Assembly: GCA_963703295.1 (NCBI GenBank)
Contig: OY969810.1
Location: 6,194,001 to 6,258,000 of the forward strand
Direction: 5' to 3'
DNA from: Bryobacterales bacterium
Lineage (GTDB): Bacteria; Acidobacteriota; Terriglobia; Bryobacterales; Bryobacteraceae
DNA length: 64,000 nt
Of the stretch, positions 57,301 to 64,000 are shown in pieces; positions within the stretch are counted from its first letter, which is position 1; every line of letters begins with the position of its first letter. The position numbers are program-made.

Positions 57301-60300
57301 CGGCTCACTGCGCCAATAGTCAATCCTAATAGCGCCGCGCCCGCCAAACTGTTCGTAAATCTCATCTCTAAACCTCACCGTTCACAAATGGCGTAGGATC
57401 TCCTACGCAGTGTACGCCAATTCAAAACAGAAGATCGTGGCGATTCGTCACCCAGGATTACGCCCGGATTACGATTCGGTAATCTCGGGTCAAGCTTTCT
57501 TTCCTAGCATTTCCTTCCTTAACATCGGGCGCAAAAGGAGGTTCGTCAGAATCAATGCGACCGAGAACGCAGGCAGCAACAACAGTCCGGTCTGCAGACT
57601 GGATGCGTTTGCCACCTGGCCAATAATCGGGGAACTTACAGCCAGCCCGATCCAGCCGCAGGTAATAACGATCCCCATGGCTGTCGCCGTCATTTTTGGA
57701 AATACATCTCCCACGATCGCGAGCGTTGTCGGAAACATTGGCGCCATGGCGAGACCGGCGCAGAATACCGAGATCCAGGCGACTGTCGGGGTGCTCGCCC
57801 AGAGCATCAGCAAGGTAGTGACGGTCATTGCGGCGGAGGCGGCCAAGGTCACGGTTTGCGACGAAACACGGATCAGAATTCGCGATGCGATTATCCGCCC
57901 AATCAGCAACCCGAGCGCAAAGCCGAGCGACAAAACATTCAGCGCCGAACTCTTATCCAGACCGCGTACTTGTACCAAATATGCCGCCAGCCAGTTCCAA
58001 ACCCCGACTTCGCAGGCTACGTAGAGGAACAGCATGAGCGCCAAGAGATACAATGCTGGACGGCCGGTAATCACTCCGATTTCCGATGCTTTGAAGCCGC
58101 GCTCCCCAGTCGGCGTGGGCATAGGAGTGATGATATTGACGATCAGGGTGATGACGCCCAGGGCGGCCGCGAGATAACACATTCCGACCGCGTTACCTCC
58201 CAATACATTGGCCGTTATCAGCGGCGTGAGAAGGCCTCCCAGCCCGAAGAACAGGTTCAACTGGTTGAGCATCGACGCTCGCCGGGATGGATTCACGTCG
58301 GAAGCCAGAGCGTTCGCGGCGGTCACCAATACGCCTCCGCCCAATCCCAGAACAGCCAGGCTTACAATGACCGCTGTGTAGTCGTGGCCGGCGCTGGGGA
58401 GGAAGCCCAACGCCGCGCAGATCGTTGCCAGTCCTGCAACCATGGCGGTTTTCTTACCCTTGAGATCTATCAGAGGCCCTGCTGAAACCGAGGCAATCGC
58501 CAGTCCAATAGCCTGAGCGAATGCAATCGCGCCATTCTGCGCATCGTTGAACCCCAAGGTTGGGCTGAGCGTGCCCCAAGTAAGAAGCGACGACCCCATA
58601 AACCAGAACTCCGAGAATCGCGGCCAATATCAGCATTTGAGGATTGATCTTATCAGCTTTAATGCGCGATACTACGGCCCGTGCGAATCGGCGTCGTTGG
58701 ATTAGATTTCAGGGGCCTGGTGCATCTCGAGGCATGGGGGGACTGATTCCAGGCGCGGAGTTGACCGCCGTCTGTAGACGGCGACTGGCCCGCGAAGGAT
58801 GTACTGGGATCGCTCGGCGCCGAGCGCCCGCTAGGCGAGGGGTCGGTCGGCATCCGACGGTTCCTCGAGAAGTGTAAACCAGTTGGTTTCCGCGGGCCGT
58901 TGAACATCGAGCGGGAAGTGGAGAATCAAGACAAACGCTACAGCGATATCCGCGCCGCGATGAAGCTTCTGGATTCGCTCTCGTGAGTCGCTTGCCCACT
59001 GAGCCTGATTGCAAAATCCGTCGGCGGCGGATATAGTAGCGAGGCATGAAGCGACTCGCGTTGATCGGGATGGGCATATTGTGTGCTGCGAGTTTTTGCC
59101 CAGCCTTTTCCCAGCAACGCCCTCTAAACCAGCCGCCGCCGGGGTTCCTTGCGCTGTTCAACGGCAAAGACCTCTCCGGATGGCGCGGGCGGCAGCCGAA
59201 CTATGATCCGCGCGCGGAGGCTGCGCTATCCAGCGAGGAACTGGCAGCGAAACAGGGCCAATGGAATAGCGAGCGCGACATGCATTGGAGTGTGGATGGC
59301 GCCAAAGGCGAGATTGTCTCTGACGGCCGGAGCCCTCACCTCGCCACCGTAAGGAATTTCGGGGACTTCGAAATGTCCGTCGATTGGCTTATGGTCAGCC
59401 ACAACGGCGATTCCGGCGTCTATCTTCGCAGTTACCCGCAAGTGCAAATATGGGACCCGGACAATCCTCGCGAAGTAAGGAACGGCGCGCCCAAGGGATC
59501 GGGCGCGCTCTGGAACGATAACGACGACAACCCAGGCAAATGGCCCATAGTCAAGGCCGACAACCCGGTCGGCCAGTGGAACACTCTCCGGATCAAAATG
59601 ATTGGCTCGCGCGTATGGGTCTGGTTGAATGAGAAGCAGACCGTCAACGGCCAGGTGCTGGACAACTACTTCGATCGCAAGCAACCCCTCGTCCCCAACG
59701 GAGCGATCGAATTGCAGACGCACGGTTCTGAGATCCGTTTCCGCAACATCTACGTTCGAGAGATCTCTTCCGCCGAAGCCAAAGCTCCCCTCGACAAGCT
59801 CAATCGCTACTAGCACGACGGCGTCTGACTGATTTCGCGTGAGATGCCTCTTCCCGGTATCCTCAGCGCGTAGGCTCAAAGAGCGGCATCGCCGCAGTCT
59901 GGGGCACTTTGAGATCCTCCGCGAGAACTCCGACGCCTACGGCGCCTTTATACAGAGCGTCCCGCAGGAAGTATTTGGAGCCGTCCGCCGCGGCCCGGCG
60001 CGTAATTGCACGCCCCCGTTCCAGCCACAACTCCGAACCGGTCAAGCGATATGCCGCAAGGAGAGCGTAACCAACGCCGCCGAGGCCGCAGCACAATGTA
60101 CCGACTTGCGTTTCCGCGGCCCAGGCGCTCAGGGCGGCGCCTTCCGCGATTTCGCCGAACCTTCCCGCGCTCAACACGTCATGCGCCAGGGCGTAAAGCA
60201 TCGCGTACCCGGCGGTTCCGTTGCACCAACCTTCCATAAACGACGGCGCCGCCGTAGCATTGTGAATCGGCCAGCGCACGCCGCTACCGTGCGGTTCCGC

Positions 60301-63300: not shown

Positions 63301-64000
63301 AGCTGGTCGAACGGCGCCAGCCGGAAGCGCCTGTTTGATCGCAGGCGAACGCGAAGAAAATCGACCATTATTAACTTATATTCGCCTATTCGCCCCTGCG
63401 AGTACGATCGGTCTTCTCGCCTATCGAGCTTTCCTTTGTCCGCTCAACTCTTTTATTTTTTCTCTTTTGCGGATTTCTGTAATTCAGAGCGCCGTTGCCG
63501 CAACTCTTCCAGAGCCTCCGAAAGCTTCTTCTCGAGAGCCTCGACTTGATCGATAGTCTGCGGCACGACGGCTCGTTGCTCGGCGGCCGCGGCCAACGCC
63601 TGTTCGCGTTGCTTCACCTGCTGCATCGTCTGGCGCAACTGGCTCTTGAGCCTCGCCAGTTCGGCAGGCGCCATCTGTCCGACAGGTCGCGCGCCGGCAA
63701 CGACTGAGCCCCTGGCGCAGCCGTTGCTGGGCTCCTGGCAAAAAATGGGGCTGTTCCCGTCGCAACTGACGCGAATACTGCAACCGGCGCAACTGGCGAA
63801 CCGACAGCTAACGCCGCAGCCGTTGCTGGGCTCCTGGCAAAAAATAGGGCTGTTCCCGCGGCAACTGACGCGGATGCTGCAAGCGTTGCAAGTAACGAAG
63901 TGGCACGTCCCCGTGCATCCCGTACAGGCGCCGCAGGTGCCGGTGCACCCACCGGTGCAAGGGCCGCAAGTACCCGTGCAGCCGCAGGTTTGAGTACACC

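What a model noticed while it worked through the whole genome (the two positions that open the first line are those of the whole stretch)
59863..64000. Split class IV lanthipeptide cassette with a giant 29-Cys precursor and a coiled-coil follower
A three-gene operon holds a 253-aa peptide (short conserved leader, hypervariable core with 29 Cys, 16 Thr, 13 Ser, conserved C-terminal coiled coil), a 384-aa protein of no family, and a kinase-LanC fusion that lacks the lyase domain of LanL. Reading: a lanthipeptide class in which the lyase works in trans and the substrate is a very large polycyclic peptide held by a follower coiled coil. New if true: a new synthetase layout between classes IV and V and one of the largest lanthipeptide cores.
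Evidence so far: g05383 matches LanL only from model position 236 of 851. Core counts in call 71. 19 homologs of the precursor keep FKIRDLM leader and coiled-coil tail around a variable CT-rich core. Same gene order in 3 of 4 other genomes, the fourth lacks the precursor. A g05384 ortholog has a weak RamC_N (class III lyase) hit, E 0.1, and all keep an FKLYxSP...FKVG...RPDK lyase-like motif (motif recalled). The finding spans contig positions 6253863 to 6258214; this window holds only 6253863 to 6258000 of it.
(Added by a program. Inside this text positions count along the whole contig: contig position 6,194,001 is position 1 of the stretch shown here. "Call 12" and the like, gene names such as g00115 and contig names such as C1 are that model's own, and its searches are not shown. 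The text may have been shortened before it was handed on; [...] marks where a part breaks off. The agent that wrote the report below was given it as the finding of a first reader that could run no searches.)

Follow-up and report, generated by a model that had tools for sequence, protein, structure and literature searches.

The report
Split lanthipeptide synthetase with giant substrates
Three adjacent bacterial genes encode a peptide with 30 cysteines matched by 30 serines/threonines, a free-standing enzyme predicted to strip phosphate from such residues, and a kinase fused to a ring-closing domain; together they likely staple the peptide with up to dozens of sulfur bridges, a widespread enzyme layout that my ten literature searches did not find described.

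Summary
Observation confirmed; interpretation strengthened but corrected. The 384-aa protein folds confidently (pLDDT 92.5) as a phospho-Ser/Thr lyase most like class V LanY/HopA1 (Z 15), with an N-terminal RiPP-recognition-element (RRE)-like domain. The kinase-LanC fusion starts with a related domain, keeps all kinase and cyclase catalytic residues and has a Cys-Cys-Cys zinc site (109/109). The lyase gene is directly followed by the kinase-cyclase gene in 83 of 84 scorable loci. In 70 of 70 scored precursors Ser+Thr equals or exceeds Cys, often exactly (30:30 here), as expected if each Cys closes a (methyl)lanthionine ring. It fails defining tests of classes IV, Vb and VI, so it is a separate layout rather than simply a split LanL. 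It is widespread but patchy (1,086 lyase clusters at E≤1e-30; cultured Paenibacillus, Bacillus, Cupriavidus). The precursor has 30 Cys, not 29, and family precursors run from 63 to 595 aa. No conserved protease or exporter was seen. Chemistry, follower role and product function are untested; the complex predictor was unavailable. The scan noted this system before on another genome (e1-9960288).

The parts
63453..64000 (-). Precursor peptide gene (253 aa; begins outside the window at contig 6258214). Short F-x-I-x-D-L leader, Cys/Ser/Thr core, helical follower
   Evidence: single copy in the genome
63660..64000 (-). Part of the core inside the window; the whole core (residues 28-185) has 30 Cys, 14 Ser, 16 Thr
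63716..63899 (-). Internal duplication in the core: two 85-nt copies, 87% identical, 99 nt apart
63477..63659 (-). Follower (residues 186-246): L-x-x-L-K-x-Q-L amphipathic helix plus an optional second helix; likely an enzyme-recognition sequence
   Evidence: L49, L52, L56 at least 90% conserved in 41 precursors; repeated around each core in L105
62214..63368 (-). Stand-alone lyase, 384 aa: RRE-like domain plus LanY/HopA1-type phospho-Ser/Thr lyase fold
63054..63368 (-). RRE-like domain of the lyase (residues 1-105)
   Evidence: VIA-align to MibB 191-287 Z 7.5, TigE 4-86 Z 6.8, MadB 6.3, TbtB 6.2, NisB 134-230 Z 5.8; each Z is middling on its own
62253..63017 (-). Lyase domain (residues 118-372) with K219, Y221, K249, R259, D261, Y266, R326
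   Evidence: Z 15.0 LxmY, 15.0 HopA1, 14.7 CuvL; conservation in 264 sequences; residue mapping
59863..62217 (-). RRE-like domain + Hanks kinase + LanC cyclase fusion, 784 aa from Met13
61894..62217 (-). N-terminal domain of the kinase-cyclase (residues 1-108), homologous to the lyase's RRE-like domain
   Evidence: hhalign probability 74.5, E 2.7e-5; same domain heads another ORF in Cupriavidus L107, E 4.6e-32; not folded alone
61042..61875 (-). Ser/Thr kinase domain; K152, E168, D246, N251, D264 invariant
   Evidence: 109 of 109
59878..60912 (-). LanC cyclase domain; D542, H605 and zinc ligands C665, C709, C710 invariant
   Evidence: 109 of 109; SgbL catalytic set in PMC9292228

Best explanation
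The three genes are likely a two-enzyme lanthipeptide synthetase and its substrate: the kinase would phosphorylate Ser/Thr in the core, the separate lyase would eliminate phosphate to give dehydro residues, and the zinc cyclase would add nearly every Cys to one of them, giving a densely polycyclic thioether peptide. Shown: ORFs, gene order, predicted folds, invariant active-site residues, and the Cys to Ser/Thr balance. Inferred: each enzyme docks on the substrate through its own RRE-like domain, which would bind the short N-terminal beta-strand leader (it resembles the class I FxLx motif), while the follower helix would be a second recognition handle. Ring pattern is inferred only loosely: C-[ST]-x-[ST]-C and [ST]-x-x-C spacings are enriched, which would allow 4-residue, partly interlocked rings. 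Release of the core, if it happens, would rely on a protease encoded elsewhere.
For: Lyase fold: the 15 listed Foldseek rows at E<=0.001 (18 matches counted) are all LxmY, LanKC/LanL, HopA1, SpvC or OspF entries; VIA-align Z 15.0/15.0/14.7/12.8/11.9/8.7 for the top six against 7.6 for the first unrelated row; Atlas 25 of 30 hits in HopA1-bearing clusters, though recognition was low. K249, R259, D261 264/264; K219, R326 263/264; Y266 257/264; they align with the LanKC and LanY catalytic positions (roles in PMC9486802). Kinase and cyclase residues 109/109. Lyase gene directly followed by the kinase-cyclase in 83 of 84 loci; precursor directly upstream in 63 of 75, downstream only in 6. Ser+Thr >= Cys in 70 of 70 scored cores; 51 of 51 with >=8 Cys against 10.3 expected from background; 31 of 31 against 8.4 after 50% de-duplication; median ratio 1.0 with tight core limits. 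C[ST]x[ST]C 64 observed against 13.1 in shuffles, max 25 of 300. Perfect 12/12 sigma-70 consensus 72 nt upstream of the precursor.
Against: No activity data. The lyase has Tyr (247/264) or Phe where SpvC/LanL have the catalytic His, as LanY does, and no PDB sequence matched the lyase profile. RRE assignments rest on middling Z (5.8-7.5), and the kinase's copy only on profile similarity. No recurrent protease or exporter among 98 flanking ORFs from about 38 loci. One subfamily keeps the full cyclase set with a 1-Cys precursor (L075). Four of 75 loci show no precursor. Loci and precursors are related, so counts overstate independence; a small control of Cys-dense stretches from the same genome met the 0.8 ratio in 4 of 8.
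Confidence: 0.8

Rival explanations
1. Same chemistry, but the product is a thioether-stapled protein that keeps its coiled-coil follower (possibly oligomeric or cross-linked between chains), not a released small peptide.
For: No conserved protease or exporter; cores up to 50 Cys and a 595-aa repeat substrate; the two-helix follower is long and conserved; the cyclase's best structural match is the LanCL-type GCR2, Z 40.3, and LanCL2 is its best sequence match, E 6.5e-24, and LanCLs work between molecules (PMC9934072).
Against: Minimal precursors keep only one short follower helix (63-91 aa). The Paenibacillus precursor repeats leader-core-follower three times like a multi-core RiPP. S8 peptidases flank the Bacillus locus. 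Many RiPP clusters lack a protease (PMC12636437).
Confidence: 0.25
2. The enzymes dehydrate, but Cys stay largely free or bind metal; the peptide is a metallothionein-like or disulfide-solenoid protein and only partly modified.
For: Cys spacings of 2-5 dominate and suit metal binding; Cys/Thr repeats also occur in disulfide-rich solenoids (recalled, from no call); a 1-Cys precursor exists.
Against: Intact cyclase with zinc ligands in 109/109; near one-to-one Cys to Ser/Thr in the Cys-densest cores, for example 26:26, 30:30, 34:34, 50:54; Lys only 0.8% of core residues.
Confidence: 0.12
3. The kinase and lyase act on cellular proteins as a signalling or toxin-like phospho-elimination pair, and the upstream peptide is an inhibitor or bystander.
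For: The lyase fold is shared with effectors that inactivate kinases. The kinase profile scores generic PknB-like kinases (up to 91 bits) above LanKC/L kinases (27-63 bits).
Against: A hypervariable Cys/Ser/Thr core between conserved ends sits beside the enzymes in 71 of 75 loci (69 by HMM; L066 and L106 by eye); RRE-like domains on both enzymes; in the kinase tree the family and LanKC/L fall on one side against generic kinases (98/93).
Confidence: 0.05

Closest known systems
Class IV lanthipeptide synthetase LanL (SgbL, CuvL; NF038150)
   Same: Hanks kinase followed by a zinc LanC domain with catalytic Asp and His; CuvL is the top Foldseek hit of the fusion; the lyase keeps the Lys of the OspF/LanL 'K104' position.
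   Different: Lyase is a separate gene of LanY-like build; zinc site Cys3; RRE-like domains on both enzymes; 133 of 650 bits; kinase and cyclase clades lie outside the sampled LanL/LanKC; precursors 63-595 aa with a follower.
Class Vb lanthipeptides (LanK + LanY + LanC; SmoA) and the LxmKY/CaoKY dehydratase
   Same: Stand-alone HopA1-like lyase working in trans; LxmY is the top structural match (228 residues, Z 15.0); a LanC closes the rings.
   Different: Class V LanK is a stand-alone APH kinase (PF01636), here a PF00069 kinase fused to LanC; Lys instead of LanY's Arg; RRE-like domains, which PMC10604976 says no class II-V enzyme has; class V is reported from actinobacteria and its precursors were collected under 110 aa.
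Class VI (streptococcal LanKCb)
   Same: A kinase-centred synthetase departing from the three-domain plan.
   Different: Described in reviews as one enzyme with truncated cyclase and lyase domains making miniature peptides, only in Streptococcus (primary paper not held); here the cyclase is full length and the lyase is a full separate protein.
Class I LanB/LanC
   Same: Two-enzyme system, RRE-like leader binding (MibB, NisB, MadB matches), FxLx-like leader.
   Different: Dehydration by kinase and lyase, not glutamyl-tRNA LanB; cyclase fused to the kinase.

Membership tests
Lanthipeptide cluster (general) | LanC-fold cyclase with catalytic Asp/His and zinc ligands | tested here: met
   PF05147 E 1.4e-22; D542, H605, C665, C709, C710 in 109/109
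Lanthipeptide cluster (general) | Ser/Thr dehydration machinery | tested here: met
   Kinase motifs 109/109 and lyase fold with conserved Lys/Arg/Tyr; predicted structure, no activity
Lanthipeptide cluster (general) | Precursor with Cys and Ser/Thr core and conserved recognition sequence | tested here: met
Lanthipeptide cluster (general) | Lan/MeLan actually formed | not testable with these tools
   needs mass spectrometry
Lanthipeptide cluster (general) | Leader removal and export | tested here: inconclusive
   No recurrent protease or exporter in 98 flanking ORFs; could be encoded elsewhere
Class IV (LanL) | One polypeptide: lyase-kinase-cyclase | tested here: not met
   Separate adjacent genes in 83 of 84 loci; NF038150 from position 236 only
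Class IV (LanL) | Cys-Cys-His zinc site | tested here: not met
   Cys-Cys-Cys in 109/109; the two zinc-type LanL-like references have Cys-His
Class IV (LanL) | NCBIfam NF038150 cut-off 650 bits | tested here: not met
   133.3 bits
Class Vb | Stand-alone HopA1-like lyase LanY | tested here: met
   By fold and profile; PF17914 itself hit only 1 of 93 members, E 0.074
Class Vb | Stand-alone APH-family kinase LanK | tested here: not met
   PF00069 E 1.6e-16 over 200 residues against APH E 2.9e-6 over 35; fused to LanC
Class Vb | Stand-alone LanC | tested here: not met
   Fused to the kinase in all 109 aligned homologs
Class VI | Single enzyme with truncated cyclase and lyase; miniature substrates | tested here: not met
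   Full LanC, separate lyase, long substrates; definition taken from review passages
RiPP recognition element | Three-strand, three-helix winged fold that binds the leader | tested here: inconclusive
   Five RiPP-enzyme domains match residues 1-106 of the lyase at Z 5.8-7.5; binding not tested

The most novel reading that the evidence does not exclude
A seventh lanthipeptide class: a widespread, independently evolving synthetase (RRE-lyase plus RRE-kinase-Cys3-cyclase) that grips its substrate at both ends and converts nearly every Cys of cores with up to 50 Cys into thioether rings, making 'lanthi-proteins' far larger than known lanthipeptides that may keep their coiled-coil tail, and offering an unusually permissive enzyme for protein stapling.
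Probability: 0.4. Interest if true: 0.88.

Novelty: new variant of a known kind. Interest (0 to 1): 0.72.

Why it matters
Lanthipeptide classes are defined by enzyme layout, and reviews to 2026 count six. This layout fits none of those tested. It mixes a class V-type lyase, a class III/IV-type kinase-cyclase and class I-type leader binding, so it bears on how these synthetases were assembled. It is common (1,086 lyase clusters at 50% identity with E<=1e-30) yet easy to miss: the Walker 2020 pipeline would bin the fusion as class III/IV and looked only for 30-120 aa precursors, and the lyase has no Pfam label. An enzyme pair that tolerates unrelated cores of 1-50 Cys between two fixed handles would be a useful cyclization tool, and cultured carriers such as Paenibacillus peoriae make it directly testable.

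Tried and rejected
Complex prediction (lyase + RRE-kinase + a short natural precursor) was not available: the queue was full at both tries, so there is no verdict on leader, follower or enzyme-enzyme binding. Sequence searches of the PDB with two lyase alignments gave only chance hits. Pfam and NCBIfam give the window's lyase no label; 5 of 95 homologs hit NF038150 weakly, best E 2.4e-4. The Atlas gave no usable hit for the precursor. No RNA holder was listed. Rfam found nothing in 20 kb. No second precursor copy was found in the genome. The idea that the kinase was recruited separately from PknB, suggested by profile scores, was not upheld by the tree, where family and LanKC/L kinases fall on one side against 17 generic kinases, all from one genome; origin stays open. 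The idea that Cys-poor precursors go with a dead cyclase was not upheld: L075 keeps the full set. The whole-model fold searches did not test the fusion's first 108 residues. A ProcM-like three-Cys zinc site is recalled; the passage search did not confirm it. Ten literature searches found no description of this layout. He 2023 and Pei 2022 are not held, subscription journals are largely missing, and I read no supplements; those of Walker 2020 and Pei 2022 could list such clusters.

Full report
Observation. The three minus-strand ORFs are present. It has 30 Cys, and 14 Ser plus 16 Thr between the first Cys and the follower. A 99-nt-period duplication lies in the core. The kinase-cyclase most likely starts at Met13, whose ATG overlaps the lyase stop; the same overlap or a gap under 40 nt recurs across loci. 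A 12/12 sigma-70 consensus sits 72 nt upstream of the precursor, the only promoter-like site in 5.2 kb (0.8 expected). Flanking genes are a sugar-hydrolase-family gene and a TPR protein. Cassette GC is 62.8% against 58.8% for the genome. The closest named loci are Acidobacteriaceae and Bryobacteraceae, so the host is probably an acidobacterium (inference).

The 384-aa protein. It has no family label, but 20 of 93 homologs hit RamC_N weakly (best 1e-4) and 1 of 93 hit HopA1. With that alignment it folds at pLDDT 92.5. The Foldseek rows listed at E<=0.001 are all phospho-Ser/Thr lyase folds, led by LxmY. VIA-align gives LxmY and HopA1 Z 15.0 over 228 and 223 residues, CuvL 14.7 over 162, then ThurKC, SalKC and SpvC. 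Profile alignment to five HopA1-family proteins gave probability 91.5 over 137 columns, and to four LanKC-type lyases 44.9 over 83 (small reference sets). There K219 and Y221 face the K and H of the LanKC motif and K219 faces the Arg of LanY-type proteins; K249, R259 and Y266 match the conserved base, phosphate-binding Arg and Tyr described for CaoY and SpvC (PMC9486802, passages). These residues are 97-100% conserved in 264 sequences, Y221 94%. Residues 1-106 match domains of MibB, TigE, MadB, TbtB and NisB at Z 5.8-7.5; that these are their RREs is recalled. Each score is middling, but five RiPP enzymes agree.

The kinase-cyclase. The model has pLDDT 91.7; CuvL is the top Foldseek hit and GCR2, CuvL, MadC and NisC lead VIA-align. 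All kinase motifs and D542, H605, C665, C709, C710 are invariant in 109 homologs, so the SgbL set (PMC9292228, first 10,000 characters read) is kept with Cys for the third zinc ligand. N666 sits where LanC enzymes place the enolate-stabilising residue (PMC9934072, passages; inference). Residues 1-108 resemble the lyase's N-terminal domain (E 2.7e-5), and the same domain heads a separate 357-aa ORF in Cupriavidus (E 4.6e-32), so it is a portable module. In trees of the kinase (17 family, 6 then 9 of 11 LanKC/L, 17 generic) and of the cyclase (9, 11 and 2 class I), the family is its own clade with 100% support, not nested in LanKC/L. These trees are small and unrooted and long branches meet in the cyclase tree, so they argue against a recent fission but do not give the origin.

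Family. The lyase profile finds 1,558 clusters at 50% identity, 1,086 at E<=1e-30. It occurs in 8 of 401 phylum genomes and 4 of 61 relatives, own genome included. Named carriers include Dictyobacter, Solirubrobacteraceae, Burkholderiaceae and Thermoanaerobaculia and plasmid records of Paenibacillus peoriae, Bacillus paramycoides and Cupriavidus oxalaticus. Among 94 loci, the kinase-cyclase follows the lyase in 83 of 84 with at least 200 nt downstream. Of 75 with at least 600 nt upstream, a follower-bearing ORF lies directly upstream in 63 and only downstream in 6; two more were found by eye and four have none. Several loci are near-duplicates. Neighbours vary, with no recurrent protease or exporter in 98 scanned ORFs.

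Precursors. All share a short F-x-[IV]-x-D-L-like start and an L-x-x-L-K-x-Q-L helix; the second helix is optional. Of 86 follower hits, 15 lacked a recognisable start (mostly contig ends) and were dropped; with 20 database proteins and 80% de-duplication 75 remained, 5 lacked the follower pattern and 70 were scored. Ser+Thr was at least equal to Cys in all 70, and in 51 of 51 with 8 or more Cys against 10.3 expected. The densest cores are close to one-to-one (26:26, 30:30, 34:34; 50:54 in L066). A same-genome control met the looser 0.8 ratio in 4 of 8 stretches. C-[ST]-x-[ST]-C is about five-fold enriched. Many cores are tandem repeats; the Bacillus one is 595 aa with 13 repeats. In P. peoriae the order is follower, then leader-core-follower three times, which suggests that both ends are recognition signals.

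Mechanism. Phosphorylation, elimination in trans and zinc-dependent Michael addition follow from the folds and from class III-V chemistry (established knowledge; PMC8341899 and PMC10604976, passages). Leader binding to the RRE-like domains is inferred from likeness to the class I FxLx motif, and a docking role for the follower from likeness to the amphipathic class III/IV leader helix (PMC12328550, passages and section 7). Neither was tested. The biological role of the product is open; the lack of export genes favours a cytoplasmic or lysis-released product, which keeps the stapled-protein and metal-binding rivals alive.

Comparison and novelty. Defining tests for classes IV, Vb and VI fail (membership table). 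PMC10604976 states that no class II-V enzyme has an identifiable RRE. Ten searches of the open library found no description; He 2023 and Pei 2022 were known only through reviews (PMC10676316, PMC12328550, PMC12291118, passages). PMC7268733, PMC12636437, PMC11667668 and PMC13509491 were read as passages. Verdict: a real, widespread, apparently undescribed lanthipeptide synthetase layout; new variant of a known kind, interest 0.72.

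Noticed in passing
L125 (G000:C1:783000-802000): The genome's two other LanC genes lie in one class I-type region: a 1088-aa LanB-like ORF, two LanC (Cys-His zinc motif), a peptidase-ABC-transporter-like ORF and a 110-aa, 15-Cys precursor-like ORF. Labels other than LanC are read from sequence.
   Followed up: partly
G000:C1:2797322-2797642 (L119): A separate HopA1-family (PF17914) match over cut-off in the same genome, E 5e-7.
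   Followed up: no
L107 (Cupriavidus oxalaticus plasmid record) 4297-13482: Hybrid locus: a 1054-aa LanB-like ORF and a cupin-like ORF upstream, then precursor, lyase, a 357-aa ORF with the same RRE-like domain fused to an apparent 2-oxoglutarate oxygenase (read from motifs), and the kinase-cyclase on the opposite strand.
   Followed up: partly
L105:7978-8730 (Paenibacillus peoriae plasmid): Precursor built of three leader-core-follower cassettes with 3-Cys cores, annotated hypothetical.
   Followed up: partly
L106:12730-14517 (Bacillus paramycoides plasmid): 595-aa substrate-like protein of 13 repeats ending in the follower helix, downstream of the kinase-cyclase; S8 peptidases on both sides.
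   Followed up: partly
L075, L082, L124: Subfamily with a 1-Cys, Pro/Thr-rich precursor; in L124 the lyase lacks the N-terminal domain and the cyclase match is weak, possibly decayed or frameshifted.
   Followed up: partly
L019, L024, L059, L072, L098: Two tandem precursor genes with different cores before one enzyme pair.
   Followed up: no
L005, L002, L090, L123: Broken kinase-cyclase genes (insertion element in L005, which also lacks a precursor; split frames in the others).
   Followed up: no
window 48456-51266: Integrase-like, DNA-primase-like and DUF-type ORFs suggesting a small mobile element about 9 kb from the cassette (read from translations).
   Followed up: no
window 54763-57365: PQQ-dehydrogenase-like ORF followed by a cytochrome c-like ORF (read from translations).
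   Followed up: no
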